From Minisyncoccia bacterium (GTDB lineage Bacteria > Patescibacteriota > Minisyncoccia > Phycocordibacterales > UBA918): 61,915 bases of DNA. A program made the position numbers and the translations under genes. The notes beneath the pieces are model-generated. The model did no database searches and had not been told where the DNA came from. It was given only the letters and a program-made list of their open reading frames with translations. The DNA lies in assembly GCA_041742075.1 (NCBI GenBank), contig JBGSJJ010000011.1, positions 1-61,915 of the forward strand. The letters are read 5' to 3'. Below, in pieces: positions 1,918-45,731 of the stretch (positions within the stretch are counted from its first letter, which is position 1; each line of letters begins with the position of its first letter).

Positions 1918-1946
1918 AATATAACATATGTTAACACATATGTCAA
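1918..1946 (-). promoter_or_regulatory. sigma70-like promoter (TTGACA, 17-nt spacer, TATATT) immediately after the duplicated tRNA-Gln tail
   Basis: The minus strand reads cagcaagTTGACAtatgtgttaacatatgtTATATTtac. It points into ORF 1392-1844. Confidence 0.6.
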
Positions 1947-1950
1947 CTTG

Positions 1951-2083
1951 CTGCCGGTCAGGGAATCTCTCTTGTTACACAAGCAGTATACCTTTTGGCT
2001 ATATTTTCGCTACGCTCAATCTAGCTCAAAAGCTTTTCGAGCCCCTGACGCGAGTGACATATTAGTCACTCGCTATCTGGCAG
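1951..2083 (-). repeat. tRNA-tail mimic element, type 1 (Gln copy; candidate structured RNA)
   Basis: The minus strand reads, in order: CTGCCAG (anti-acceptor), hairpin GCGAGTGAC-taatat-GTCACTCGC, GTCAGGG (anti-T-stem), CTCGAAAAG, P2 CTTTTG...CAAAAG, GTATACTG, hairpin CTTG-TGTAA-CAAG, then CCCTGACCGGCAG. That last segment copies the tRNA-Gln 3' end with one change. Confidence 0.8.
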
Positions 2084-2126
2084 CTCTAAAGCAAAAATCC
2101 CCTATTCGGGGATTTTATGCTAAGAG

Positions 2127-2197
2127 CTGCCGATCAGGGACTCGAACCCCAATAGCTGGTACCAGAAACCAGAGTCCTACCATTAGACGAATCGGCA
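2127..2197 (-). tRNA. tRNA-Gln (anticodon CTG)
   Basis: Manual cloverleaf: acceptor TGCCGAT/ATCGGCA, anticodon stem CTGGT/ACCAG, loop TTCTGGT, T-loop TTCGAGT. It is followed by the terminator AAAATCCCC-gaat-AGGGGATTTT (plus-strand 2094-2116). Confidence 0.85.
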
Positions 2198-2452: not shown

Positions 2453-3097
2453 CTAAGAGAGATGTCGGTCGTCATCAAACGTAACTACCTGCCAGTTACA
2501 CACTCCCTGTGTAGTCGCTTTTTGGCACTGTATGTGCGTAATACTACTGTTTTCAATTGAGGTAATTTTCAGAAAACGTAGCAGGGCCTTAACGTACGAT
2601 ATTGGCTTACCACTGCAAATATGCTCGACAAAAAAGTTAATAAAAACTGCATGTGAGACAACCACAATCCGGGCATCATCAGGATAGCTTTCGAGTATCG
2701 TTTTAGCTTCACCGATTCTTTCGAGAAGCGCTCGGTATGACTCGCCTCTTTTTTCATCTCGGAAAAAAGTGTTACCGGTCAGAAACCATCGTACGAGATA
2801 CACAATGGATGCCCATGAAAAATAATGTCGGTTATGAATCGACTCAGGACGAATAATTTCTACTACTGCCGGTTCTACTTCTACCACCAGGCCAGTTGCT
2901 TTTGCAATTGCCTCCGCAGTTTGTCTGGTACGAAAAAACGGACTGGTGATGAGGTGGGTCGGTTTATAGGAAACTAATACTTTAGCTACTGTTTCCGCCT
3001 GCTCTTGCCCTCGTTCATTAAGGGCCGAAGATGGTCGTTGGTGGATATGCAAACGATTCCCCTCCGTTTGTCCATGTCGTACAAAATAGATATCCAT
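2453..3097 (-). CDS. histidine phosphatase family protein (phosphoglycerate-mutase-like)
   Basis: N-terminal FVRHGQTEGN (RHG motif), SPFFRTRQTA, C-terminal VVSHAVF. Confidence 0.8.
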   Translation of the reverse strand: MDIYFVRHGQTEGNRLHIHQRPSSALNERGQEQAETVAKVLVSYKPTHLITSPFFRTRQTAEAIAKATGLVVEVEPAVVEIIRPESIHNRHYFSWASIVYLVRWFLTGNTFFRDEKRGESYRALLERIGEAKTILESYPDDARIVVVSHAVFINFFVEHICSGKPISYVKALLRFLKITSIENSSITHIQCQKATTQGVCNWQVVTFDDDRHLS

Positions 3098-3734: not shown

Positions 3735-4772
3735 TTATTTGTCTCCGAGTAAATCGACTAAGGCAATCTCAAGTGGTAGTTGTGGTAGGCTCATTTTTCC
3801 GGTCTGTTCGGCTGACTCAAGGAGACGAAGTAACATGGCGGAGTTGATAGGTGAAGCTTTTTCTTCAGCTAGCTTTTGTATCTGAGCTTGGTCAGCCTGA
3901 GAAAACGGTGCTAGCAAAAGCTCACTACGCGTTGGTGTATGTCTTAAAAGCATCACGGCGCGAACTCGCTCAAGTAAAAGCTTAATGAGTAGTTTAATGT
4001 CGACATTACTTTGTACTGCCTCCTCAAGTGACTGGAGTGCTGCGCCGAGGTCTTTGCTACCAAGCGCACCTAAAAGTCCTGCTAAACTAGAACTTTTTGG
4101 TGCGCCGATAATCCCCGCTACTTCGTCACTACTCCCGATTGTATCGGTTGAGGCCAAAATAACTTTTTGTAGCACTCCGAGTGCATCACGAAACGAGCCG
4201 TCGGCAGTGATAGCAATCAGGTCGGCTGCGTCAGGCGGCAGCGTAAAACCTTCACTTTTTGCCACGTCTATCACGTGCTCGGCCAGAACCGCTCGCCCGG
4301 GTGAACGAAACCGAAACACCTGACAACGGGAAAGAATAGTATCAAGGAGCTTCTCTTCTTCGGTAGTCGCTAGGATAAACACCACATGTGCTGGTGGTTC
4401 TTCAAGTGTTTTAAGGAGGGCATTAAATGCCTCCTTGGTGAGCATATGCACTTCGTCGATGATGTACACCTTCCGTTCACTTTGGTACGGCAGAGTGTGT
4501 ACCGCTTCACGGAGTTCACGAATATCATCAATCCCCCGATTACTCGCGGCATCAATCTCGTAGATGTCGACATCGCTCGTCCCGATAGCACTCGCAAAAA
4601 TTCGTGCTAACGTAGTTTTACCAGTTCCTCTCGTACCAGAAAACAGGATGGCGTGCGGGATTTTATTTTTCTTTATGGCTCCTTCGAGTACCGAGACAAT
4701 GTGTTCTTGGTTTCGGACCTGTGAGAAGGCACTCGGGCGATATTTTCGATAGAGTGCAGTGTATTCAGTCAT
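3735..4772 (-). CDS. dnaX: DNA polymerase III subunit gamma/tau (short form)
   Basis: Walker A GTRGTGKTT, IIDEVHMLT, sensor SRCQVFRF. Confidence 0.92.
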   Translation of the reverse strand: MTEYTALYRKYRPSAFSQVRNQEHIVSVLEGAIKKNKIPHAILFSGTRGTGKTTLARIFASAIGTSDVDIYEIDAASNRGIDDIRELREAVHTLPYQSERKVYIIDEVHMLTKEAFNALLKTLEEPPAHVVFILATTEEEKLLDTILSRCQVFRFRSPGRAVLAEHVIDVAKSEGFTLPPDAADLIAITADGSFRDALGVLQKVILASTDTIGSSDEVAGIIGAPKSSSLAGLLGALGSKDLGAALQSLEEAVQSNVDIKLLIKLLLERVRAVMLLRHTPTRSELLLAPFSQADQAQIQKLAEEKASPINSAMLLRLLESAEQTGKMSLPQLPLEIALVDLLGDK

Positions 4773-17035: not shown

Positions 17036-17155
17036 ATACGAAAATACCTCCGAGCGGTTACCTCTTTACGATGCTCGTTTCTGTCATTCTAGCACAACCC
17101 TCTTAGACCCTCTGTTTATAACTTTGTCATTTTCTGCTACACTCTTCCTGGCATT

Positions 17156-17237
17156 GCCTCGGTGGCGGAATTGGTATACGCGCACGACTCAAAATCGTGT
17201 ATCGCAAGGTGTGAGGGTTCGACCCCCTCCCGAGGCA
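17156..17237 (+). tRNA. tRNA-Leu (anticodon CAA), class II with a long variable arm
   Basis: Acceptor GCCTCGG/CCGAGGC, anticodon stem CACGA/TCGTG, loop CTCAAAA, T-arm GAGGG-TTCGACC-CCCTC. Confidence 0.9.
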
Positions 17238-17246
17238 CAAAATTCA

Positions 17247-17275
17247 GAGTCAGACTTTTGTCTGGCTTTTAATTT
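17247..17275 (+). terminator. Rho-independent terminator after tRNA-Leu(CAA)
   Basis: AGTCAGAC-tttt-GTCTGGCT followed by TTTTAATTTT. Confidence 0.65.
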
Positions 17276-17279
17276 TGTT

Positions 17280-17377
17280 GGAGGGGGTTGAAAACCTTTT
17301 GAGATAGATTTGACTGAAAGGAAAATATATCCAAAAGGTGTACTGAAGTAGTAAACTTCGACCCCCTCCCGAGGCAC
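17280..17377 (+). repeat. tRNA-tail mimic element, type 1 (Leu-CAA copy 1)
   Basis: GGAGGGGGTTGAA (antisense of the T-loop/T-stem), P2 CCTTTTG...CAAAAGG, GTGTACTGA, hairpin GAAGT-agtaa-ACTTC, then TTCGACCCCCTCCCGAGGCACAAA. The last segment is 24 nt identical to the tRNA 3' end. Confidence 0.85.
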
Positions 17378-17440
17378 AAATTGACAAGTCGTAATTAATG
17401 GTGAATCGGGAGGCACAGCTTTTTTGCTAAAAAAAGCGTT

Positions 17441-17520
17441 GTGCGGGGTCGAAGCCGTTGCCAGTTGCCTGCAACGTCAACGGGTACTGAAACTGTAAGT
17501 TTCGACCCCCTCCCGAGGCT
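17441..17520 (+). repeat. tRNA-tail mimic element, type 1 (Leu-CAA copy 2, short core)
   Basis: GTGC-GGGGTCGAA, P2 CCGTTG...CAACGG, GTACTGA, hairpin GAAAC-TGTAA-GTTTC, then the tail CGACCCCCTCCCGAGGCT (one mismatch to the tRNA). Confidence 0.8.
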
Positions 17521-17600
17521 CAAAATTTAAAGTCGGACTTCTAATTGCACTTTAGTGAAAATACTTTACACTTTGACCTGAACTGAACAGGAGAATAAGT

Positions 17601-17774
17601 ATGTCTGAACCACTGACCCAAGAACAAGCTGAAACTGCCCTTGTGAGAGCTCGTAACGCACTTCGCGATTCTGGTCTTGAAGGAGATGATCTCAGGCTTG
17701 CTCTGGACGCACTGAACCTTTGGACATTCGCACTGGAAAAGCTAACAAGGGGTATTCCAGTGTCAAAAAAATAG
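17601..17774 (+). CDS. small helical hypothetical protein (57 aa; below the ORF-track cutoff)
   Basis: ATG preceded by AGGAGAATAAGT. Translates MSEPLTQEQAETALVRARNALRDSGLEGDDLRLALDALNLWTFALEKLTRGIPVSKK*. Visibly GC-richer. Confidence 0.4.
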   Translation: MSEPLTQEQAETALVRARNALRDSGLEGDDLRLALDALNLWTFALEKLTRGIPVSKK

Positions 17775-17900
17775 TAAAAGTGGGATATGTTTTTAAGCTC
17801 GCGTCGACCACAAGTCGACGCCTTTTCATATTATTTAATTAAAGGTATTGTAAGAGTATCGCCAAAACCAGCACACGGAACATGGAAGGATACCGTACAC

Positions 17901-18599
17901 ATGAACGCTCTTCTTAAACTACTCATTAGAGAAGGTCAGTTTCATACCGGTAAACATTTTGTTTACACTAGTGGGCGTCATGGTGAAGTGTATGTAAATT
18001 TGCGTTTTTTGGATACTCCAAACTTCGAAAATGACATTAGACTTCATAGCTACTCGCTTTTATTGCAGGCACTCAAGGCCATGAAACCAGACTTCACTCG
18101 ACCAATTGTCGTAGTTGGTGTTGAAACTCTTGGTGCTAAAATGGCCAGGTACAGCGTTGAGGAATACAATCGAAGACACAGCACTCGCATTCGCTTCGCT
18201 GTGCTTGAAGCAAACAAACACGAAGACGGTTCAAAATCATTTGTTTGGTCAAGCAAGAATCCAGCTATCAATCACCTACTTCAAGAAGACACGCAGGTGA
18301 TTTGGATGGACGACCTACTCAATACTGCTTCGACATTAAAGCGCACGAGGCAAATCATCGAAACCTTCGCGCCAATCATGACTGTCGCAGTATTGTTTGA
18401 CCGGAGAAGCTTCAGCGTAGAATCACTCCATGTACCATTCACGGTATCGCTTATCAAACGCCCGATTGAAACATTTGACCCTGAAGTAAACCCTTGCCCG
18501 TTCTGTAGAGCAAGTATTCCAGTTGTCACAAACCTAGGTCATGGTGCCAATTGGAAGAAATCCAATCCTGCCTACAAGGGTGGATTTGAAGAAGTTTAA
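17901..18599 (+). CDS. phosphoribosyltransferase-family protein (OPRTase-like)
   Basis: FVYTSGRHGEVYVN and the PRPP loop VIWMDDLLNTASTL. The start was set at MNALLKLL rather than the longer ORF. Confidence 0.65.
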   Translation: MNALLKLLIREGQFHTGKHFVYTSGRHGEVYVNLRFLDTPNFENDIRLHSYSLLLQALKAMKPDFTRPIVVVGVETLGAKMARYSVEEYNRRHSTRIRFAVLEANKHEDGSKSFVWSSKNPAINHLLQEDTQVIWMDDLLNTASTLKRTRQIIETFAPIMTVAVLFDRRSFSVESLHVPFTVSLIKRPIETFDPEVNPCPFCRASIPVVTNLGHGANWKKSNPAYKGGFEEV

Positions 18600-18676
18600 T
18601 CAGCGTTTTTACCCAGCGAATCAATTTGGATTCGCTGGGCTTTTCATTTATGTATAATTATTGGTACACTCGCACT

Positions 18677-19579
18677 ATGACTGAAGAAGAAAAGCTCAAT
18701 ATCGTAGTGATTGTCGGACCGACCGGGTCAGGTAAAACTGCGCTTTCACTGATGATTGCTGGAAAGTATAACGGTGAGGTTATTTCAGCTGACTCCAGAC
18801 AGGTCTACCGTGGACTGGATATTGGAACCGAGAAAATTACTGAAGAAGAAAAGCTCGGTATCCCGCATCACCTTATCAGCATTATTCCCCTCGAGCAGGT
18901 CTATACTGCTGTCGACTTCAAACATGACGCCGAAAGAGCTATTGCTGAAATGGCAAGTCGAGGAAAGTTGCCGGTGATAGCTGGAGGAACTTTTTTCTAC
19001 ATTGATACACTTCTTGGCCGTGTCAGTACACCACCTGTAGCAATAGACGCTTCAATGCGTGCCATCCTTGAAGAGTGGTCTACCGAAGAACTATTTGCTG
19101 AACTCCTAAAGCGTGACCCGCGTCGCGCTCTCACTATTGACAAAAATAACCCACGAAGACTCATACGTGCCCTCGAAATTACTGAAACAATGGGTACTGT
19201 TCCCGAGACAATACTAAAAGAGTGTCCCTATAATGTGCTTATGCTCGGAATTAAAACTAAACCAACAGAATTACGAGAACGACTCCAGGCACGGGCAGAA
19301 AGAGCTATAGACCGAGGTTTGATAGAAGAGACGAAGCAGTTACTTGCTCAGGGTGCGAGCGCAGAGCGTCTGAGAGAGATTGGTCTTGAGTATCGACTCG
19401 TCCTCGATTATCTAGACGGCACAATGACAAAACAAGAACTCATACAAAAGTGTACAGAGAAAAACTGGCAATATGCGAAGCGACAACGTATGTGGCTCAA
19501 GCGCGATACTTCAATAGTTTGGGTAAACATCAACGATACGGAATCAATTCTCAAAATCGTACAAAACTTCCTCAATTGA
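18677..19579 (+). CDS. miaA: tRNA dimethylallyltransferase
   Basis: P-loop VIVGPTGSGKT, SADSRQVYRGLDIGT, GGTFFY. Confidence 0.92.
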   Translation: MTEEEKLNIVVIVGPTGSGKTALSLMIAGKYNGEVISADSRQVYRGLDIGTEKITEEEKLGIPHHLISIIPLEQVYTAVDFKHDAERAIAEMASRGKLPVIAGGTFFYIDTLLGRVSTPPVAIDASMRAILEEWSTEELFAELLKRDPRRALTIDKNNPRRLIRALEITETMGTVPETILKECPYNVLMLGIKTKPTELRERLQARAERAIDRGLIEETKQLLAQGASAERLREIGLEYRLVLDYLDGTMTKQELIQKCTEKNWQYAKRQRMWLKRDTSIVWVNINDTESILKIVQNFLN

Positions 19580-19636
19580 CCAAATGCCCTCTTTCGCCTA
19601 CTATTACTGCCACGCATATTAAGCGTGAAGCAAATT

Positions 19637-19792
19637 GGACCTATAGTTCAGTGGTAAGAGATGTTCTGAAGAACACTCTTTCTGTCATCGTTCGCTCGGT
19701 CATGTGAGAGTAAACTCTCCCCGACCCTCGCTCACTCGACAGGAGAATGCCTAGGTTTCAAATACAAGATATAGTGATGTAATAAAAATTCA
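19637..19792 (+). repeat. tRNA-like 5' mimic upstream of tRNA-Trp (a copy of the acceptor 5' strand and D-arm, followed by hairpins). Not a functional tRNA.
   Basis: GGACCTATAGTTCAGTGGTAAGAGA versus GGGCCTATAGTTCAGTGGTAGAATG of tRNA-Trp. The would-be anticodon arm is TGTTC-tgaa-GAACA (4-nt loop). Also present: hairpin GAGAG-taaa-CTCTC, long-range TTCTGTC/GACAGGA pairing, and TAGGTTT able to pair with the 5' strand. Confidence 0.6.
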
Positions 19793-19863
19793 GGGCCTAT
19801 AGTTCAGTGGTAGAATGCCGGTTTCCAAAACCGTTGACCGAGGTTCGAATCCTCGTGGGCCCG
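19793..19863 (+). tRNA. tRNA-Trp (anticodon CCA)
   Basis: Acceptor GGGCCTA/TGGGCCC, loop TTCCAAA, T-arm CGAGG-TTCGAAT-CCTCG. Confidence 0.9.
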
Positions 19864-19875
19864 CAAAATGAAAAG

Positions 19876-19906
19876 GCCAAAGCGTTTACATAGCTTTGGT
19901 TTTTTC
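19876..19906 (+). terminator. Rho-independent terminator after tRNA-Trp
   Basis: CCAAAGC-gtttacata-GCTTTGG followed by TTTTTT. Confidence 0.7.
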
Positions 19907-19912
19907 TTATTT

Positions 19913-20023
19913 TGCGAGGTCCACGAGGATTCGAAAAGCTTTTGAGATAGATTTGACTGAAAGGAAAATATATCCAAAAGGTATACTGGTCATGTAATGA
20001 CCGAAACTCCTCGTGGGCCCGCA
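19913..20023 (+). repeat. tRNA-tail mimic element, type 1 (Trp copy)
   Basis: TGCGAGGTCCACGAGGA is a near-complete antisense of the tRNA-Trp 3' end. It is followed by TTCGAAAAG, a core 44 nt identical to the Leu-CAA copy, TATACTG, hairpin GGTCA-TGTAA-TGACC, then TCCTCGTGGGCCCGCA (identical to the tRNA tail). Confidence 0.85.
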
Positions 20024-20096
20024 GTAGCAAACAAAACAAACCAGAAGCGCGAGCTTCTGGTTTGTTTTGTTTAGAACGAGCACTTCTGCTCGTTCG

Positions 20097-20278
20097 GCTA
20101 CTGCGGGAGCCGGAGCGGTGTGAGCTTGCGAACCGCGAGGCGGGGTCGCGAGCGCGAGTGGCGACGAGCGACTTGTGACCGCAAGGGAGGTCCACGAGGA
20201 TTCGAAAAGGTTAACTAATATTTTGTGACGCAGGAGCAAAAATATTGATAACCTGTACTGATACTGTAAGAATCGAAA
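20097..20278 (+). repeat. Variant tail-mimic element: inverted copy of the preceding tail, a GC-rich junction module and a type 1-like core, but no 3' tail
   Basis: GCTACTGCGGG (20097-20107) is the reverse complement of CCCGCAGTAGC (20018-20028). It is followed by AGCCGGAGCGGTGTGAGCTTGCGAACCGCGAGGCGGGG, then GGTCCACGAGGATTCGAAAAGG, P2 GGTTA...TAACC and TGTACTGA...TGTAA. Confidence 0.65.
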
Positions 20279-20287
20279 TACTAAATT

Positions 20288-21553
20288 TTAGCTACCATAA
20301 ATCGAGAAGTGTGGGGCTGATATCCAATCACCTAAAACTTTGATATCAGCAGGATTAACTCCGCCAGCTACCAGCTGGTCACGTTGACCACTTGTTACTA
20401 CTTCATACACAGGACGAAGGCCATTCGCTCGAGCAGCATTAATGACTGTAAGTACTTCTTGAGCGTTCATCCCACCCGCCTTACTATAGTCAACGCACGT
20501 TCCATTCATATGGCACTGACTTTTGTGTACCCGTGACGGAGGCATCGCTTCTGTTACCCGCGAACCGATTACCCCAGCTGACACAATATCGGAATGAAAG
20601 GCATTAAATCTACCAACCAAATCGGGAGCAATTGAACAGCTATTTGAATTTGAGCAGGGTACGTTAAGTGGTACACAGGTGCCACCACTGCAACCCTGAC
20701 TCTGAATAGGGTCTTCATCAGTACCACCACCTGGGTCAGTGGTACAGAAGCCACCAATGGTAGAATTCCCTGTCGGCGGAGTCCAAACTCCTCTCATAAA
20801 TCTACAAGTCTCAACGGCTCCGCTACAATCAGCTACCGCGTCAATTCCGCCACCAGCAAGACACGTAATCGGTACTTGATTTGGTCGTCCCACTGCCCCT
20901 TCACGAATACACGTTACCTGGTTATTTTCTGAGATGTCGGCATCGAGGCGACCTCGAATACACGCTTCTACTGCCGGCTGACAGTCAAAGGAGTTAGTCA
21001 AAATAACAAAGAGACATTGAGTGGTCTGATTCAGTTGACCGACTGGCCCTTCTTCAAAGTTAAACCCAAGGTCTTCAAGCGTTGCTCGAGTATTATTAAA
21101 GTCAATTCCATTCCTGTCACTCTCGACTGGTTCCGGTCGATAGATCTCCCCACACTCAACTGGTTCCCAAACACCATAATCACTTCCCGTTAAAGCTTTC
21201 ATGATAGTGTCAACAATTGTCCACGCAGCGACCAGTAGTATCAATCCAATCATGGCATTAACAAAATACGTCTTGGCGTTTTCATACGCCGACTGGTTCC
21301 CGGCTGAAGTCACGAGACCAAAACCAGCATACGCCAACACCATCACAATGAGCAGAATCGAAATGGTAACAATCCAGTCAACGATGACGTCAAACAACTC
21401 GACAAATAAACAAAAATTACAATCTGTTCCACTACAGGTCACTAAGCCGGCAGGTCCGCTGTCTTGCCCAAACGCTATACTTGGAAATAAAAATAGAAAA
21501 AAAACTAACACTGAAGGGATTTTCATAAGATTGTATAATTTTATAAAATTCAT
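20288..21553 (-). CDS. secreted/membrane fusion protein: pilin-like (VirB2/TrbC-like) N-terminal domain, Cys-rich linker and a LAS/M15-like zinc peptidase C-terminal domain
   Basis: Signal peptide, CSGTDCNFC, two TM helices and YGVWEPVEC. The C-terminal HMNGTCVD (H-x6-D) and APHF resemble VanY/M15 D,D-peptidases. Confidence 0.6.
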   Translation of the reverse strand: MNFIKLYNLMKIPSVLVFFLFLFPSIAFGQDSGPAGLVTCSGTDCNFCLFVELFDVIVDWIVTISILLIVMVLAYAGFGLVTSAGNQSAYENAKTYFVNAMIGLILLVAAWTIVDTIMKALTGSDYGVWEPVECGEIYRPEPVESDRNGIDFNNTRATLEDLGFNFEEGPVGQLNQTTQCLFVILTNSFDCQPAVEACIRGRLDADISENNQVTCIREGAVGRPNQVPITCLAGGGIDAVADCSGAVETCRFMRGVWTPPTGNSTIGGFCTTDPGGGTDEDPIQSQGCSGGTCVPLNVPCSNSNSCSIAPDLVGRFNAFHSDIVSAGVIGSRVTEAMPPSRVHKSQCHMNGTCVDYSKAGGMNAQEVLTVINAARANGLRPVYEVVTSGQRDQLVAGGVNPADIKVLGDWISAPHFSIYGS

Positions 21554-23294: not shown

Positions 23295-23545
23295 ATGCGC
23301 ATGCTCGGGTGGCAGAGTAGAAACAAATAGTTTTCTTTCTACTTGTAAATGACGAGCGATCTGAGTTTACAAAGCAGTGAGTCATAAACTCAAAACAACA
23401 TATAAAGTACAACTTAATAACTATGCGTCGATGGCAGATTTAAAGTAAACTGCTTTACTTTAAATCAAAAGCTGAGCATAATGCGAGTTTACGAGCTAGT
23501 GCGAAATAAACTCAAATGTACAATGTCTACAATTGAATAATAACA
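23295..23545 (+). repeat. Two tandem units of about 125 bp upstream of tRNA-Tyr, each beginning with a copy of the tRNA 5' end
   Basis: Unit A starts ATGCGCATGCTCGGGTGGCAGAG and unit B starts ATGCGTCGATGGCAGA; the tRNA context is ATGCGTCGATGGCGGA. Both units carry a variable first hairpin, then GAGTTTA...TAAACTC, then AAA..TACAA..AATAA. Confidence 0.7.
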
Positions 23546-23547
23546 AT

Positions 23548-23631
23548 GCGTCGATGGCGGAGTGGTCAATCGCAACAGACTGTAAATCTGTCGGACATCG
23601 TCCTACGAAGGTTCGAATCCTTCTCGGCGCA
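23548..23631 (+). tRNA. tRNA-Tyr (anticodon GTA), class II
   Basis: Acceptor GCGTCGA/TCGGCGC, stem ACAGA/TCTGT, loop CTGTAAA, long variable arm, T-arm GAAGG-TTCGAAT-CCTTC. The terminator ATACCC...GGGGTATTTT follows. Confidence 0.9.
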
Positions 23632-23728
23632 CTTTTTAAAATACCCTTATTTATAGGGGTATTTTGTTGAGACAGAACAACTGGTTAGAACCTTTGCTAT
23701 ATTTAATCTTTTGGACTAAGATTTGGAC

Positions 23729-24382
23729 ATGAAAAGTGATTACCAAGAAAAACTCACCTCCCTATCCTCTCACGTTTCTAAAACTCTATTAAAATGGCAG
23801 GGTTTTAAAAAAAGAAGAAACGCATTCAATCGAAAATTGGACGGCGGAATAGTCCAAATAATAAGTTTCCAAGCTGGCAGTTACGAGCCATTTGCTATAG
23901 ACGTCCCAAACATGAACTACTTCCCTAACAGTTTATATGGAAAGTTTACAATCAACTTAGGAATATACATTGATGATTTACAAATTTTCATGCATGGTAA
24001 GAAACCAAAAGATTTTGTAAACGAATACGATTGCCAATTGAGAACGAGAGCTTCACACTTAGTTACCTCAACAGATGAATGGATTTCAATTGATAAAGAT
24101 TTCGATAAATTATCGAAAGAAACTACTAATCTAATTGAAAAATATGCACTACCTTTTCTAGATAGGTTTAATTCAAGAGAAAAAATAGAAGAATATTTTA
24201 AAACTGAAGGGACTACATTAACTAATATCCCTTTGGCATATTTAGCAATAATGTGCCATAAAGATGGTAACAATGAAGCAAGTTCTTCCTACATGAAAAA
24301 ACACATCGACTCAATCGTAAATCATGAAGGTCACAAAGAATATATGTTTGCGTTGGCTAAAAAACTTGGTCTGGATATTTAA
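23729..24382 (+). CDS. hypothetical protein (217 aa), AT-rich; the N-terminus resembles DUF4304-type proteins
   Basis: LLKWQGFKKRRNAFNRKLDGGIVQIISFQ follows the GFKK-x-GN-x-F-x-R...I-x-FQ pattern I recall for DUF4304 (from memory, unverified). The ORF is bracketed by GGTTAGAAC (23683-23691) and GTTCTAACC (24424-24432). Confidence 0.5.
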   Translation: MKSDYQEKLTSLSSHVSKTLLKWQGFKKRRNAFNRKLDGGIVQIISFQAGSYEPFAIDVPNMNYFPNSLYGKFTINLGIYIDDLQIFMHGKKPKDFVNEYDCQLRTRASHLVTSTDEWISIDKDFDKLSKETTNLIEKYALPFLDRFNSREKIEEYFKTEGTTLTNIPLAYLAIMCHKDGNNEASSSYMKKHIDSIVNHEGHKEYMFALAKKLGLDI

Positions 24383-24440: not shown

Positions 24441-24490
24441 TCCTGTGCACTTTTTAAAAACGAGCATCCACATTTGTGGGTGCCGTTTTT
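24441..24490 (+). repeat. Degenerate copy of the tRNA-Tyr tail plus downstream TTTTTAAAA and a terminator hairpin
   Basis: TCCTGTGCACTTTTTAAAAA compares with TCCTTCTCGGCGCACTTTTTAAAA at the tRNA, followed by GCATCCACA-ttt-GTGGGTGC and TTTTT. Confidence 0.6.
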
Positions 24491-24494
24491 ATTA

Positions 24495-24630
24495 GTGTGC
24501 CGAGAGTGAGTGACTCAATGTCACTCACGTAAAGATTCGAAAACCTTGCCTACTATTTTATGACGTTAGGAAATAAAATAGTGACAAGGTGTACTGAAGC
24601 TGTAAGCTTCGAAACTCCTTCTCGGCGCAC
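24495..24630 (+). repeat. tRNA-tail mimic element, type 1 (Tyr copy)
   Basis: GTGTGCCGAGA (anti-acceptor), hairpin GTGAGTGAC-tcaat-GTCACTCAC, GATTCGAAAA, P2 ACCTTG...CAAGGT, GTGTACTGA, hairpin GAAGC-TGTAA-GCTTC, then CGAAACTCCTTCTCGGCGCAC. Confidence 0.85.
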
Positions 24631-24635
24631 ATAAC

Positions 24636-24664
24636 TTGACAATACACTAGAAATGGTGTATTGT
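24636..24664 (+). promoter_or_regulatory. sigma70-like promoter (TTGACA, 17-nt spacer, TATTGT) 6 nt after the duplicated tail
   Basis: TTGACA 24636-24641, TATTGT 24659-24664. It points at ORF 24847-25236. Confidence 0.55.
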
Positions 24665-24846
24665 TTTGCATAAATCTAATCAGTATGGAGTCTGCTATGA
24701 GGTATCCCAGATAGCGGCTTCGGCTGCTTATTTTGTTCTTTTTCTTTCAAAAATCAAACCGCAACCCGCTCCCTATCAAATTCGTGATGGACCGCGTTCG
24801 GCCATAACCGCCGACCACCCATAACGAAGAAAGCTAGGAGCACAAC

Positions 24847-25236
24847 ATGAAGAAGCGTAACGAACATGGTCTGACTCAAAGTCAGGTTCGCAGGTTAGCG
24901 AATATTCTTTTGGAACTCCAGGGTGCACTCGAATCAGTGCGCAATGGGAACGGAACAACCGCCGACGTAGAGCAGTGGAAGAAACCCCTGTTCGAAAGAA
25001 CATCAGCGATTCTGGGTGAAAACCTAACGCGATACCATCAGACCATTGCCGCCCTCAGGCGACATGGAATCGTGGACGAGTTTCAGGAAGAAGCTGACCG
25101 AGAGGAAGCCGTGAAGCGTGATTTCAGGATGAGGCGTGCCGAACGATTCGGTCTCCCCTACGACTCCAAAGATAGCGCTTTCCTGGATAGGTACGAAGCG
25201 GAAGCAAATTGGCTCGACCAGTACGGTTCAAGCTAA
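24847..25236 (+). CDS. hypothetical protein (129 aa), visibly GC-richer
   Basis: Intact ORF with AGGAG 6 nt upstream. A hairpin and T-run follow at about 25271-25300. Confidence 0.5.
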   Translation: MKKRNEHGLTQSQVRRLANILLELQGALESVRNGNGTTADVEQWKKPLFERTSAILGENLTRYHQTIAALRRHGIVDEFQEEADREEAVKRDFRMRRAERFGLPYDSKDSAFLDRYEAEANWLDQYGSS

Positions 25237-25329
25237 TCGTAACCTCAATTATCAACAAGTCGTCACTCAAACGGAAAAGACCGTTTGGAGGGACGGCTTT
25301 TTCTATTGCCTCCTCACCACACAAAAGTG

Positions 25330-25354
25330 TCGAACCAGCTCCATCCCGGCGCAC
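25330..25354 (+). repeat. Further copy of the tRNA-Tyr tail (TCGAACCAGCTCCATCCCGGCGCAC) followed by TTTTAAAAAA and a terminator
   Basis: Same tail + TTTTAAAA + hairpin organisation as at 23612-23675 and 24441-24490. Confidence 0.6.
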
Positions 25355-25514
25355 TTTTAAAAAATGACCTTGTTTTGCAAGGACATTTTTCTTAGGAAAA
25401 GATAGAGTTCAAAAAATACTATATCCGTGCCATTTTTCTATAAATATTAAAGACTTGATCTTCTTGGATCCTTGTGTATAATTTGGATATCACGACGAAG
25501 AGGGTTCCGAACGG

Positions 25515-26040
25515 TTAATTGCCTAAGGAGCCCTTTTCTTTTGCTATCTTTTTTCTTACATCTAAATAGGACAGATCTGCAAAAAATTCAGCGCCCAATA
25601 CTTTATACAAAGACGACGCATAGCGTTGATTCGGAAACAATATTTTCTCCAGCTTATTCTCTTCCAGAAGAAAATCGACAAGCATTTTATAATCACCATC
25701 TCCAGACACAAGAACGATTTTAGCAAACGTGTCATCCTTATATACTTTTTTCATTATCGAAAAGATAATGTCAGAATCAACATTACCTTTCTTTTTACCA
25801 ATCATAGCTGAATTATGTTGGCGAAATACTAGAATAAATCCAGCCGACTGGATCTCTTCGTATAATTCTTGAGACCTTTCACTAATCTTGGACGTAACCG
25901 AGGAAATAGTATGCCTGATCAACATCGTACTTCTCCCTAAGGAAAACCCTAAATCTTGCCAAATCAACCTTCCACGAAGGTTCTCTCTTAGTGGTTCCCA
26001 TAAATAGATTCTGTCCGTCAACGTAAGTGAGATTTTTCAT
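25515..26040 (-). pseudogene. NYN/LabA-like (PIN-like) domain gene split by a 1-nt frameshift near 25885
   Basis: The N-terminal part lies in ORF 25882-26136 (MKNLTYVDGQNLF...YYFLGYVQD*). The C-terminal part lies in ORF 25515-26021 (...SQELYEEIQSAGFILVF...VLVSGDGDYKMLVDFL). Confidence 0.6.
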
Positions 26041-26059
26041 TGTAAAATTATACCAAACA

Positions 26060-26264
26060 AAGGTTCGAACCTTCTCCAATCTATACAGATTCCTTACAGG
26101 AACTGTCCACTCATTGGACCTTATGTTTCGCTTCACTTACAAAAGTTCCTCAATGAGTCTTGCGACAAGCTCCCAGCTTGTCTCACTATTCAGGTTGTAT
26201 GATATTTTTGCAAAATATCGACAACTTCTTGCGACAGTTTCCCAAACTGTCTCACCCGGCGCAC
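26060..26264 (+). repeat. tRNA-Tyr T-arm copy, two tandem type 2 modules and an acceptor-tail copy
   Basis: AAGGTTCGAACCTTCTCC; then CCTTACAGGAACTGT, P2 ACTCATTG...CAATGAGT, CTTGCGA, hairpin CAAGCT-ccc-AGCTTG and TCTCA; then hairpin TTGTATGATATTTT/AAAATATCGACAA, CTTGCGA, hairpin CAGTTT-ccc-AAACTG, TCTCA and CCCGGCGCAC. Confidence 0.75.
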
Positions 26265-26267
26265 TAC

Positions 26268-26298
26268 TTGACAAACTCCTTAAATAGTGTATTATAAT
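26268..26298 (+). promoter_or_regulatory. sigma70-like promoter (TTGACA ... TATTATAAT) 4 nt after the duplicated tail
   Basis: TTGACA 26268-26273. TATTAT 26290-26295 overlaps TATAAT 26293-26298. It points at the glycoside hydrolase gene. Confidence 0.55.
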
Positions 26299-36473: not shown

Positions 36474-36836
36474 ATGTCTGACCGTCAATTAAAAGTCCAG
36501 CAGGAACTTCAATCGCATATCGCGACCTTTATTCAACATGAGGCCAACACCAATCCCCTCATTACCGTGACTCATGTCGACATCTCACCGGAGTTTAAAA
36601 ACGCAACCGTGTATTTCACGACTATTCCAGCCGAAAAAGAAAATGACGCCCTCATCTTTCTCAAGCGTGAAGGAACAGCGCTTCGTACCTACGTAAAAAA
36701 CCACATGCGTATAAAACAAATCCCCCACTTCTCTTTTTCTGTAGACTATGGTGAACGTCACCGTCAACACATCGACGAGCTTGTACGTGAGACCGGCACC
36801 CCAGCCAGCGAGTATTTCGCTGAACCTGAAAAATAG
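36474..36836 (+). CDS. rbfA: ribosome-binding factor A
   Basis: Directly follows infB. VTHVDISPEFKNATVYF pattern. Confidence 0.8.
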   Translation: MSDRQLKVQQELQSHIATFIQHEANTNPLITVTHVDISPEFKNATVYFTTIPAEKENDALIFLKREGTALRTYVKNHMRIKQIPHFSFSVDYGERHRQHIDELVRETGTPASEYFAEPEK

Positions 36837-36902
36837 CTCAATCGGGCTTCGATTCCCTTTGACCAAAATAAAAGGCCTGACATAAAGTCTGGCCAATCAT
36901 TT

Positions 36903-37650: not shown

Positions 37651-37852
37651 GTGCGTGAGCTTGCGTGGGGTGGACTTGAAAACCTTGTGTGACAGATTCG
37701 ACCAGAGGAGAATATGTCCACAAGGTGTACTGAACCTGTAAGGTTCAAGTCCTCTTCTTACAGAAGCTGTATACCTTATCAGTATTCCTCGCTTCGCTCA
37801 GAATACTAGATAAGGTCTTGCAAAGTGCTCCCAGCACTTTTCACCCGCGCAC
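37651..37852 (+). repeat. tRNA-tail mimic element, type 1 (Leu-TAG copy 1), with its tail split by a nested type 2 module
   Basis: GTGCG-TGAGCTTGCG-TGGGGTGGACTTGAA, P2 ACCTTGTG...CACAAGGT, GTACTGA, hairpin GAACC-TGTAA-GGTTC, CAAGTCCTCT, then an 88-nt insert, then CCCGCGCAC. Confidence 0.85.
37756..37843 (+). repeat. type 2 module nested between the T-stem copy and the acceptor copy of the duplicated Leu-TAG tail
   Basis: TCTTACAGAAGCTGTAT, P2 ACCTTATCAGTATT...AATACTAGATAAGGT, CTTGCAA, hairpin AGTGCT-ccc-AGCACT, TTTCA. Same 88-nt length and same first 22 nt as 45644-45731. Confidence 0.8.
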
Positions 37853-45479: not shown

Positions 45480-45643
45480 TTCTTTAAGTATACCTTGTCT
45501 GTTCGTAAAAAAACTGCACCGGGTGTGTAAAGAGCTTTGCTTATATAGTTTGCCCGACACGGATAGTGCCAAGCTCCCGCAGGACGCAAACGCGGTTCCT
45601 CCCTAGGCATATTTTCCTAAGCAAGACGCCAAGCGCCATTTCT

Positions 45644-45731
45644 TCTTACAGAAGCTGTATACCTTGTCAGTATTTTTCATTCTTCAAAATACTAGGCAAG
45701 GTCTTGCGAAGTGACATTGAATCACTTCTCA
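45644..45731 (+). repeat. type 2 module, orphan copy with no tRNA nearby
   Basis: TCTTACAGAAGCTGTAT, P2 ACCTTGTCAGTATT...AATACTAGGCAAGGT, CTTGCGA, hairpin AGTGA-cattgaa-TCACT, TCTCA, then CCCTGGTGGG. Confidence 0.75.

What the first reader, a model, noticed from the sequence alone, without database searches (positions are those of the whole stretch)
19913..20023. An identical 44-nt core at two different tRNAs, with both arms retargeted
CTTTTGAGATAGATTTGACTGAAAGGAAAATATATCCAAAAGGT is identical in the Leu-CAA copy (17295-17338) and the Trp copy (19938-19981).
- Upstream arm: GGAGGGGGTTGAA in the Leu-CAA copy, TGCGAGGTCCACGAGGATTCGAA in the Trp copy.
- P3 arms: GAAGT/ACTTC versus GGTCA/TGACC.
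- Tails: each differs and matches its own tRNA.
An identical core with fully re-specified flanks argues for recent copying combined with a mechanism that rewrites both the antisense and the sense arm from the target. Slow independent drift would not produce this.
Basis: seen in the sequence. Interest (0 to 1): 0.85.

Follow-up and report, generated by a model that had tools for sequence, protein, structure and literature searches.

The report
Conserved RNA module beside tRNA genes
The two identical 44-base stretches are the same conserved hairpin of a small structured RNA element, absent from Rfam, that sits just after many tRNA genes in Patescibacteria; the shared hairpin looks swapped between resident copies, and the tRNA-matching flanks do not look rewritten.

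Summary
Each element has a 5' arm antisense to that tRNA's 3' end, a core hairpin P2 (the 44-mer), a small hairpin P3 and a 3' tail that copies the tRNA 3' end.

At least 12 relatives lie in the window, 103 more in 59 Patescibacteria loci, and at least 120 'bare' copies (Px-P2-P3, no arms) in metagenomes. P2 and P3 covary strongly. No Rfam family matches. No phage or plasmid carries it, and no protein gene recurs beside it.

- The same P2 type differs by 0-5 nt between genomes of different classes.
- Copies within one genome tend to be closer (0, 1, 1, 5 differences).
- An orthologous tRNA-Trp unit in another genome keeps the trailer, arm, P3 and tail (93-95% identical) but carries a different P2.

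So the core is exchanged or homogenised while the arms stay with the locus.

Bare copies behave as insertion elements: removing one 88-nt copy restores 26/26 identity to a tRNA 3' end. The function is unknown.

The parts
19793..19864 (+). tRNA-Trp(CCA), the gene whose 3' end the element matches
   Evidence: ARAGORN; Rfam tRNA, 67.4 bits
19877..19899 (+). Terminator-like hairpin. Its stem continues outward into a long palindrome made of the tRNA 3' end plus trailer on one side and the anti-trailer plus arm on the other
   Evidence: Sequence; spurious miRNA-type hairpin hit spanning 19841-19940
19913..19935 (+). Trp#1 arm, antisense to the tRNA-Trp T-loop, T-stem 3' strand, acceptor 3' strand and discriminator. 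Contains one G.U pair and one bulged A
   Evidence: duplex energy -47.2 kcal/mol with the tRNA 3' end versus -34.9 with its own tail
19939..19981 (+). Trp#1 P2 hairpin (type A).
   Evidence: Exact repeat; covariation in the family alignment
19988..20002 (+). Trp#1 P3 hairpin, GGUCA-UGUAA-UGACC, preceded by the conserved junction UAUACU
   Evidence: 4 of 5 P3 pairs show double changes
20003..20023 (+). Trp#1 tail, a sense copy of the tRNA-Trp 3' end. It has a 2-nt insertion in the T-loop part (GAAACUCC versus GAAUCC)
17156..17238 (+). tRNA-Leu(CAA)
17280..17378 (+). LeuCAA#1 element. Arm 17280-17292; P2 17295-17338 (the 44-mer is 17296-17339); P3 17345-17359; tail 17357-17378
   Evidence: CM R1 score 101.7 bits
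17406..17522 (+). LeuCAA#2, the second unit of the array. Split arm (g1 17406-17413, inserted hairpin Px, g2 17444-17453), divergent P2, tail 17501-17522
   Evidence: CM R1 50.4 bits
20185..20290 (+). Trp#2, the second unit of the Trp array. Arm 20185-20206 still matches tRNA-Trp; P2 is type-B-like; the tail has decayed
   Evidence: CM R1 70.5 bits; arm:tRNA -36.4 versus arm:tail -7.0 kcal/mol
1949..2086 (-). Element downstream of tRNA-Gln(CTG) (2126-2197, minus strand), with Px between the two halves of the arm
   Evidence: CM R1 72.4 bits; sequence
24495..24631 (+). Tyr element (g1, Px, g2, type-B P2, P3, tail). An ~0.8-kb DUF4304 cassette separates it from tRNA-Tyr
   Evidence: CM R1 112.9 bits
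37155..37254 (+). Cys element. Its arm AAUUGAA is the exact complement of the non-palindromic T-loop UUCAAUU
   Evidence: CM R1 101.8 bits
37646..37755 (+). LeuTAG#1 element up to the T-stem part of its tail. The acceptor part of the tail resumes at 37844-37852
   Evidence: CM R1 94.5 bits
37756..37843 (-). Bare S-type copy (Px-P2-P3, no arms). It is inserted in reverse into the LeuTAG#1 tail exactly at the T-stem/acceptor junction
   Evidence: Deleting it restores 26/26 identity to the tRNA-Leu(TAG) 3' end plus trailer; CM R1 39.2 bits
37881..38026 (+). LeuTAG#2 element with a long, divergent P2
   Evidence: CM R1 31.2 bits; fold z = -5.6
45642..45731 (-). Bare S-type copy not next to any tRNA
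   Evidence: CM R1 49 bits
26060..26260 (-). Two nested S-type copies (inner one 26090-26185) inside a Tyr-like tRNA 3'-end copy

Best explanation
What it is. Both loci are members of one Patescibacteria-wide family of small structured non-coding elements. The conserved core is a series of hairpins joined by conserved linkers:
- Px, which is optional;
- P2, which is the 44-mer;
- P3, which has a UGUAA loop.

At tRNA genes the core sits in a 'socket' made of two pieces. One is an inverted copy of the tRNA's 3' end: the arm, often split by Px at the T-stem/acceptor junction. The other is a direct copy: the tail. On the tRNA-sense strand the RNA folds as a three-way junction. Its closing helix P1 (arm:tail) has the sequence of the cognate tRNA's T-stem/acceptor helix. 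The arm can pair instead with the real tRNA 3' end plus trailer.

Shown:
- the family, its fold and its covariation;
- arrays of up to five or more units behind one tRNA;
- bare Px-P2-P3 copies that behave as clean DNA insertions, some of them nested;
- the absence of any linked protein gene.

Inferred for this finding. The arms and tails are resident at each tRNA locus and are inherited with it. P2 is a highly conserved, interchangeable module. It is homogenised or swapped among the resident copies of a genome by homologous recombination: gene conversion between copies, or unequal crossing-over within arrays. That gives an identical core between unrelated arms without any arm-rewriting step.

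Inferred more weakly, on function. The family is a non-autonomous, largely selfish insertion and recombination element. Its tRNA-flank form persists because the direct tRNA-end repeats allow duplication, deletion and transfer by ordinary recombination. The RNA fold is selected, but for an unknown reason.
For: - Exact 44-mer, present twice, with identity ending at the P2 borders.
- Twelve copies in the window at E<1e-4. 103 copies in 394 kb of 59 Patescibacteria loci.
- A same-strand tRNA of 16 isotypes lies just upstream in most loci, and the tail shares up to 23 nt with it.
- P2 and P3: 90.6% of cells paired, 16 of 22 pairs with double changes, covariation score 0.514 versus 0.151 in shuffles (0/500 reach it) and <=0.082 when the partners are slid. 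G.U is common and A.C rare, so the fold is on the tRNA-sense strand.
- Type-A P2 differences: median 4 of 43 between genomes. Within-genome pairs at different tRNAs differ by 0, 1, 1 and 5.
- Window versus L027 tRNA-Trp unit: everything but P2 is 93-100% identical, while P2 is type A versus type B.
- P2 and P3 types are shuffled across tRNAs.
- Arrays hold mixed P2 types (L028/L058).
- Arm:tRNA pairing is at least as strong as arm:tail pairing in 7 of 9 window copies, and tails decay.
- A clean 88-nt insertion. Nested copies. Filled and empty tandem paralogues.
- No recurrent neighbouring protein. No recombinase, transposase or RT in the 62-kb window.
- Absent from phage, plasmid and viral collections.
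Against: - The within-genome comparison rests on four or five pairs. Type-B P2 copies of one genome are not obviously homogenised (reading).
- The apparent P2 swap in L027 could instead come from differential loss of units from an ancestral mixed array.
- Homology flanking P2 is short (~10 nt on the left, ~35 nt on the right), which is poor substrate for RecA.
- The model does not explain how arms complementary to each tRNA's own T-loop first arose.
- It does not explain why no arm/tail socket without a core was found.
- It does not explain why RNA structure is so strongly conserved in a supposedly selfish element.
- All related loci were retrieved with patterns derived from this window, so the sample is biased.
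- Expression of the RNA is not shown.
Confidence: 0.55

Rival explanations
1. First reader's model. The element is a mobile unit that copies itself to new tRNAs, and its antisense arm and sense tail are regenerated from the target at each insertion. Possible routes are fold-back or templated synthesis on the tRNA 3' end, or insertion that turns the flanks into arms.
For: - Arms are exact complements of each tRNA's own T-loop, even non-palindromic ones (Cys AAUUGAA versus UUCAAUU). They also extend into the tRNA's own trailer. Templated inverted copying therefore happened at least once per lineage.
- No socket without a core was found: the arm-to-tail spacing is never <40 nt.
- A bare copy inserted in reverse into a tRNA-end copy automatically acquires flanks complementary to the tRNA.
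- The core variant shared by the two window copies was seen nowhere else.
Against: - Identity is confined to P2. The junction bases and P3 differ between the two copies.
- An orthologous locus has the same arms and a different P2.
- Near-identical P2 occurs in distant genomes.
- No RT, polymerase or recombinase is linked to the element.
Confidence: 0.12
2. Miniature integrative elements moved by an unlinked site-specific (tyrosine-type) recombinase that crosses over in the T-loop. Each unit brings a replacement tRNA 3' end, trailer and terminator. The tail is the displaced original 3' end (attR).
For: - Direct repeats begin in the T-loop and run to just past the discriminator. From my own knowledge, this is the classical T-loop sublocation of tRNA att sites.
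- Arrays appear to grow next to the tRNA: the sequence after the first tail in L028 matches the tRNA trailer of L032.
- Tails decay while the arm keeps matching the tRNA-proximal copy.
- Gene cassettes of 1-2 kb lie between the tRNA and the element (window Tyr locus; L003, L017, L023, L047).
Against: - No integrase is present in the window or recurrent in 180 loci.
- The element is not found on phages, plasmids or viral contigs.
- Sixteen or more different tRNA targets would need one very permissive enzyme or many enzymes.
- The model does not explain the antisense arm or the RNA-type covariation.
- Bare copies insert at many non-tRNA sites without repeats.
Confidence: 0.12
3. A host-beneficial, tRNA-linked functional RNA. 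Candidate roles:
- a new self-cleaving ribozyme;
- a processing handle whose P1 mimics the acceptor/T helix, so that RNase P, RNase Z or the CCA-adding enzyme act on it;
- a guide whose arm pairs with the tRNA 3' end or a 3' tRNA fragment, for quality control or regulation.
For: - Phylum-wide conservation of unpaired junction and loop nucleotides (UGUACUG, UGUAA, GAC...AGGA) together with covarying stems.
- Elements at orthologous tRNAs are 81-92% identical between genomes whose flanking genes are ~70% identical.
- 79 of 134 tRNAs in the fetched DNA carry an antisense copy of their own T-arm downstream.
- P1 reproduces the continuous 3' strand of the tRNA acceptor/T stack, with Px where the tRNA body would branch off.
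Against: - A terminator-like hairpin lies between the tRNA and the arm, and no convincing promoter is present.
- Copy number per tRNA varies from 0 to 5 or more, and many tRNAs have none.
- Tails decay.
- In Ala elements the arm gives A3-U70 instead of the G3.U70 identity pair, so faithful tRNA mimicry for charging is unlikely.
- Nested and reverse insertions look selfish.
- No known ribozyme model matches.
Confidence: 0.3
4. The identity is only strong purifying selection on P2, with no recent exchange at all.
For: Between-genome type-A P2 pairs differ by 0-1 nt in 19 of 267 comparisons. One pair from different genomes and different tRNAs (L034, L055) is identical.
Against: Only 1 of 267 between-genome pairs is identical. 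Within-genome pairs are closer than the between-genome median (0, 1, 1, 5 versus 4). The window's variant combination is not seen elsewhere.
Confidence: 0.15

Closest known systems
Integrative elements at tRNA genes (attL/attR repeats of the tRNA 3' end starting in the T-loop; tandem arrays of islands)
   Same: Both have a direct repeat of the tRNA 3' end bounding the inserted DNA. Both form tandem arrays and both can have cargo cassettes between the tRNA and the distal repeat.
   Different: Units here are only ~100-190 nt. No integrase is linked, there is no phage or plasmid form, there is an extra antisense copy of the tRNA end, and the RNA fold is conserved and covarying.
HDV-like 'theta' ribozymes next to phage tRNAs (PMC10879173; title and abstract only)
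   Same: A small structured RNA placed immediately 3' of tRNA genes.
   Different: No HDV-type model matches. A terminator hairpin separates the tRNA from the element here. The element carries antisense and sense copies of the tRNA end. It is chromosomal in Patescibacteria and is not found in viral contigs.
Guide-bearing RNAs of mobile or defence systems: IS110 bridge RNA, TIGR-Tas tigRNA arrays (PMC12045711), IS200/IS605 omega-RNA
   Same: A conserved scaffold is interleaved with target-specific segments, one antisense and one sense to the target. Units are arrayed. TIGR systems are also reported from parasitic bacteria.
   Different: No recombinase, Tas or TnpB gene lies nearby. The two specific segments here cover the same target stretch and pair with each other. 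Units are 100 nt or more, not 36 nt.
REP/BIME elements, MITEs and PATEs (small non-coding dispersed repeats of bacteria)
   Same: High copy number (about one per 5 kb in the window). Non-coding and hairpin-rich. Insertions are nested, and there is no coding capacity.
   Different: Sequence and structure are conserved across a whole phylum rather than within a species. There are no terminal inverted repeats and no target-site duplication. Covariation is of the RNA type. A specialised tRNA-flank form exists.
Primer-binding sites of retroviruses and LTR retroelements (from my own knowledge)
   Same: A stretch complementary to the 3' part of one specific host tRNA.
   Different: The arm here does not include the complement of CCA. 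It runs through the whole T-loop and into the gene's trailer, so it matches the gene or precursor and not the mature tRNA. No RT is present.

Membership tests
Any Rfam 15 family (including hammerhead, twister, twister-sister, pistol, hatchet, HDV, group I/II domains, T-box, tmRNA) | Covariance-model match at or near the gathering score | tested here: not met
   Only tRNAs reach threshold in the window and in 27 related loci. The permissive scan (E<=10) over 17100-20400 gave only spurious miRNA-type hairpin hits.
Hammerhead ribozyme | Three-way junction with the CUGANGA and GAAA cores | tested here: not met
   The junction reads UGUACUG directly into P3. The G8/A9 positions are absent or variable (GUACUGAAGC, GUACUGAAAC, AUACUGGUCA).
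tRNA-targeting integrative element (integrase/att) | Direct repeats of the tRNA 3' end flank the inserted DNA | tested here: met
   Tails share 15-23 nt with the adjacent tRNA 3' end.
tRNA-targeting integrative element (integrase/att) | An integrase encoded in or next to the element, or the element carried on a phage, plasmid or ICE | tested here: not met
   Pfam scan of 40 window ORFs found no recombinase. No protein family recurs in more than 4 of 59 loci, and none recurs near 120 S-type loci. Phage, plasmid and viral searches gave no hits.
IS110 bridge RNA / TIGR-Tas array | Adjacent DEDD/serine recombinase or Nop-domain Tas gene, with guides for adjacent target halves held in internal loops | tested here: not met
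   No such gene is nearby. The arm and tail cover the same tRNA stretch and form a helix. The description of TIGR is taken from PMC12045711.
IS200/IS605-type PATE / omega-RNA | A specific 4-5-nt target 5' of the left end, with TnpA or TnpB in cis or nearby | tested here: not met
   The 5' flanks share only a terminal purine-G. No TnpA or TnpB appears in the window or among the neighbours. A trans-acting copy elsewhere in the genome could not be tested.
MITE | Terminal inverted repeats and a target-site duplication | tested here: not met
   The 88-nt copy at 37756-37843 has neither. Its removal restores the target exactly.
tRNA intron (group I, or archaeal bulge-helix-bulge type) / split tRNA | Removing the insert restores a functional tRNA | tested here: not met
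   For none of the S-type copies tested (the metagenome, genome-locus and window copies matching the search pattern) did removal give an ARAGORN tRNA across the junction, with 20 boundary offsets each. The host sequences are truncated tRNA copies lying next to intact genes.
Structured RNA (generic) | Compensatory base changes that support conserved helices | tested here: met
   P2/P3: 306 cells with double changes versus 112 in shuffles, 0/500 shuffles as high, and slid controls collapse. In S-type copies 13 of 18 pairs show double changes, Px included.
Self-cleaving ribozyme (new class) | Site-specific self-scission in vitro | not testable with these tools
   Only the conserved junction nucleotides and the high copy number are suggestive.

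The most novel reading that the evidence does not exclude
The Px-P2-P3 scaffold may be a new class of catalytic or effector-binding RNA. Its tRNA-flank form would then be a programmable, tRNA-specific device. The arm would guide it to the 3' part of one tRNA: the precursor, a 3' tRNA fragment, or the gene's sense strand. The sense tail would be its substrate, product or decoy. In that case the arrays behind tRNA genes would be a record of RNA-guided or tRNA-templated insertion, and Patescibacteria would hold a previously unknown tRNA-directed RNA system.
Probability: 0.2. Interest if true: 0.9.

Novelty: new variant of a known kind. Interest (0 to 1): 0.62.

Why it matters
Patescibacteria have tiny, streamlined genomes. 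Yet this window carries about one copy of this non-coding element per 5 kb, and most tRNA genes sampled have at least one copy behind them.

The family has no Rfam model, and I found no description of it in six literature searches. It has several unusual properties:
- Its sequence and fold are conserved across a whole phylum.
- It has a form tailored to each tRNA's 3' end, with one antisense and one sense copy.
- Its bare form shows clear insertion behaviour without any linked enzyme.

It may be a selfish element that exploits tRNA conservation and recombination, or a functional tRNA-directed RNA. Either way it bears on three things: how tRNA loci evolve in these symbionts, the annotation of CPR intergenic DNA, and the search for new ribozymes or guide RNAs.

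For the specific finding, the lesson is narrower. An identical core between different arms reflects a modular, exchangeable hairpin. It is not evidence for automatic retargeting.

Tried and rejected
- **Hammerhead reading of the three-way junction.** The core nucleotides are missing.
- **All Rfam families**, at gathering and permissive thresholds. Nothing matched.
- **Small ORF starting in P2** (AGGAG..ATG in the Cys and LeuTAG copies). The start codon is absent in the two copies of the finding, and the stems covary.
- **Arm as a copy of the tRNA's own 5' acceptor and T-stem strands** (a decayed tRNA with an insert). Rejected for three reasons: the arm is the complement of non-palindromic T-loops, it gives A3-U70 in Ala elements, and it extends into the trailer.
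- **Phage or plasmid attP.** No hits.
- **Linked protein.** ORF clustering around 59 + 120 loci found none. An NYN-domain gene recurs in 4 loci but in no fixed arrangement.
- **TIGR-Tas or bridge RNA.** The architecture and the gene context do not fit.
- **S-type copies as tRNA introns.** Removal never restores a tRNA.
- **S-type copies inside rRNA.** No rRNA was found in 20 loci.
- **Exact 43-mer in JGI metagenomes**, to find strain-level relatives. None found.
- **Arm/tail sockets without a core.** None found.
- **Literature searches** for a described Patescibacteria tRNA-flank RNA or ribozyme. Nothing relevant.

Full report
**1. The observation**

The 44-mer is present exactly twice, at 17296-17339 and 19939-19982. 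There are no near matches, and none are expected by chance. The copies lie 42 and 49 nt after tRNA-Leu(CAA) and tRNA-Trp.

- a 5' arm antisense to that tRNA's T-loop, T-stem 3' strand and acceptor 3' strand;
- the 44-mer, which is a hairpin (P2);
- a conserved linker, U(G/A)UACU;
- a 5-bp hairpin with a UGUAA loop (P3), which differs between the copies (GAAGU/ACUUC versus GGUCA/UGACC);
- a tail that repeats the tRNA 3' end from the T-loop to just past the discriminator.

Both fold as three-way junctions with z-scores of -6.2 and -8.4. Identity ends precisely at the borders of P2.

**2. A family, not a pair**

K-mer comparison with the nine tRNAs showed the same arrangement behind the Tyr, Cys and Leu(TAG) genes, and second units behind Leu(CAA) and Trp.

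A pattern taken from the conserved part retrieved 60 loci from species-representative genomes. All but one chance hit (Xenorhabdus) are Patescibacteria MAGs or contigs probably mis-binned from them. In most of them a same-strand tRNA ends ~80-120 nt upstream. Sixteen isotypes are represented, and the tail shares up to 23 nt with that tRNA.

An alignment of 66 copies supports P2 and P3:
- 90.6% of cells are paired.
- 16 of 22 pairs have changes on both sides.
- The covariation score is 0.514, against 0.151 in shuffles (0/500 as high) and <=0.082 when the partners are slid.
- G.U pairs are frequent and A.C pairs rare, so the fold is on the tRNA-sense strand.

A covariance model built from this alignment finds 12 copies in the window at E<1e-4 and 103 copies in 394 kb of the loci.

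No Rfam family matches, even permissively. The element is absent from INPHARED phages, PLSDB plasmids and IMG/VR contigs.

**3. Anatomy in detail**

Everywhere the order is as follows:
1. the tRNA;
2. a short trailer and a terminator-like hairpin;
3. an anti-trailer plus g1, the complement of the acceptor 3' strand;
4. an optional hairpin Px, placed exactly at the T-stem/acceptor junction;
5. g2, the complement of the T-stem 3' strand and the T-loop;
6. the linker RA;
7. P2;
8. the linker UGUACUG;
9. P3;
10. the tail.

The arm is a true complement and not a copy of the tRNA's 5' strands. Three facts show this:
- It matches non-palindromic T-loops (Cys: AAUUGAA for UUCAAUU).
- It gives A3-U70 in Ala elements.
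- It continues into the tRNA's own trailer.

As a result, the tRNA 3' end, the terminator and the arm together form one long palindrome.

In the window the arm pairs with the real tRNA end at least as well as with the tail in 7 of 9 copies. Examples are Trp#1 (-47.2 versus -34.9 kcal/mol) and Trp#2 (-36.4 versus -7.0). In several genomes the acceptor part of the tail has decayed while the arm is intact.

Units form arrays. One MAG has at least five units with different P2 types behind tRNA-Trp (L028/L058).

**4.

*(a) Type-A P2 is very conserved.* Among 24 copies from 18 genomes, between-genome pairs differ by a median of 4 of 43 nt. Copies from other classes differ from the window's by 1-3 nt.

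*(b) Within-genome pairs at different tRNAs are closer.* They differ by 0, 1, 1 and 5 nt. The window's variant was seen in no other fetched locus, and the exact 43-mer is absent from JGI metagenome contigs. This suggests homogenisation within a genome, but n is small.

*(c) The orthologous tRNA-Trp unit of L027 keeps everything but P2.* The tRNA is 72/72 identical to the window, trailer plus arm 66/71, and junction plus P3 plus tail 36/38. Its P2 is type B where the window has type A.

*(d) P2 and P3 types combine freely across tRNAs*.

Together these say that the arms belong to the locus and that P2 is the piece that moves or is converted. Differential loss from a mixed array could mimic (c). 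That alternative also needs no arm rewriting.

**5. The bare form and mobility**

The model also hit copies that lack arms. Their consensus is G|UGAGAA-Px-YGCAAGA-P2-URNACMG-P3.

One copy (37756-37843, minus strand) sits in reverse inside the tail of LeuTAG#1, exactly at the T-stem/acceptor junction. Deleting it restores 26/26 identity to the tRNA 3' end plus trailer. It is therefore a clean 88-nt insertion with no target duplication. Two nested copies lie at 26060-26260, and a solitary one at 45642-45731.

Of the 123 distinct copies examined in those contigs:
- 32 are within 400 nt of a tRNA;
- several sit inside truncated 5' copies of tRNAs, at positions 24/25 or 51-54, just upstream of the intact gene;
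- some sit inside the loop of another element's P2;
- some sit inside one of two tandem paralogues of an unknown repeat, leaving the other empty;
- removal never restores a functional tRNA, so they are not introns of live genes.

Their stems covary, including a Px helix whose base is formed by UGAGAA/UUCGCA.

No protein family recurs near either form. The 62-kb window encodes housekeeping genes only, among them SerRS, DprA, TopA, RelA, ParB, MiaA, ClpB, IF-2, GyrA, S1, Pth, FtsA and FtsZ. It has no recombinase, transposase or RT.

**6. Best reading and its limits**

*Shown:*
- a phylum-wide, unannotated family of structured elements;
- a tRNA-flank form with inverted and direct copies of the tRNA end;
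- arrays;
- insertion behaviour of the bare form;
- modular P2 and P3.

*Inferred:* the identical 44-mer results from conservation plus recombinational exchange of P2 among resident copies.

*Not explained:*
- how tRNA-specific arms first arise; templated inverted copying is needed, and no empty sockets exist;
- what enzyme, if any, moves the bare form;
- why the RNA fold is conserved;
- whether the RNA is made at all. A terminator-like hairpin precedes the arm, and only weak promoter-like matches exist.

None is excluded. They are scored accordingly.

**7. Comparison with known systems and verdict**

The element resembles tRNA-targeted integrative elements in its repeats and arrays. It resembles guide-bearing RNAs in interleaving scaffold and specific segments. 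It resembles REP- and MITE-like repeats in copy number and nesting.

It fails a defining feature of each:
- no integrase;
- no effector gene and no loop-held guides;
- no terminal repeats and no target duplication.

It is also unlike the theta ribozymes that follow phage tRNAs.

I file it as a new variant among small non-coding structured or mobile elements. There is a real chance (~0.2) that it is something categorically new. The specific claim of arm rewriting is not supported.

Noticed in passing
window 19637-19790 (+); also L027 4586-4750: A decayed copy of the 5' part of tRNA-Trp lies just upstream of the real tRNA-Trp (CCTATAGTTCAGTGGTA at 19640 and again at 19796). It carries a ~115-nt structured insert in the D-loop. 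The whole arrangement is conserved in L027.
   Followed up: partly
window 23629-23641 and 24447-24459; ORF 23723-24382: A DUF4304 gene cassette lies between tRNA-Tyr and its element. It is bounded by a 13-bp direct repeat, GCACTTTTTAAAA, and a decayed tRNA-Tyr 3'-end copy sits at its right edge. It looks like a separate island insertion at the extreme 3' end of the tRNA.
   Followed up: partly
window 23425-23435: An 11-nt copy of the 5' end of tRNA-Tyr (GCGTCGATGGC) lies 123 nt upstream of the gene and is followed by a hairpin.
   Followed up: no
window 24636-24664, 26268-26295, 1918-1946 (-); L020: Near-consensus promoters (TTGACA-N17-TATNNT) start 3-5 nt after the tails. One also follows the interrupted Tyr-like tail at 26250. 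The 24632-26260 segment (an ORF plus an NYN-domain gene) may therefore be a further island bounded by tail-plus-promoter copies.
   Followed up: no
window 20085-20185; motif GTGAGCTTGCG at 20120, 37655, 38065: A GC-rich block and a repeated 11-mer lie between or inside the arms. They are related to the 'GCGACGAACCGCGAGCCGGGG ... CUUAGUA-type hairpin ... CUUGACCCC' flanks seen around S-type copies in metagenomes (L136, L152, L170, L036, L057). This may be another module of the same system.
   Followed up: partly
window 25515-26021 (-); L025, L037, L058: An NYN-domain (PF01936) gene lies next to element arrays in four loci, in no fixed orientation. It may be common island cargo or a candidate RNase partner.
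   Followed up: partly
L101, L074, L114, L176: An unknown ~95-nt repeat occurs in tandem (GAGACGYGGA - variable hairpin - CUCRCGGAAAUUCGCYAUWGUCG...). One copy is interrupted in its hairpin loop by an S-type element while the neighbouring copy is intact. No Rfam match.
   Followed up: partly
L031 ~150-400, L047 ~4100-4300: An S-type copy sits inside a decayed duplicate of the first ~30 nt of a Rossmann-type gene (MKIGFIGQGW...), just upstream of the intact gene. This mirrors the tRNA 5'-copy arrangement.
   Followed up: no
window ~36780-36860 (-): Downstream of tRNA-Leu(UAA) there is a terminator, then GGGAATCGAA (the complement of its T-loop and T-stem), then a GCCCGATTGAGC... segment that resembles the P2 of a unit in L028. 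This is a possible degenerate or divergent element that the model missed.
   Followed up: no
L073 ~2900-3000, L038, L037: Some arm/tail sockets hold quite different cores (for example AGACGGANCC...). This suggests that more core families exist than the A and B types modelled here.
   Followed up: no
L160 3539-3779 (-): A group I intron (Rfam, 79.6 bits) lies on a metagenome contig that also carries an S-type copy. They are 1.5 kb apart and probably unrelated.
   Followed up: no
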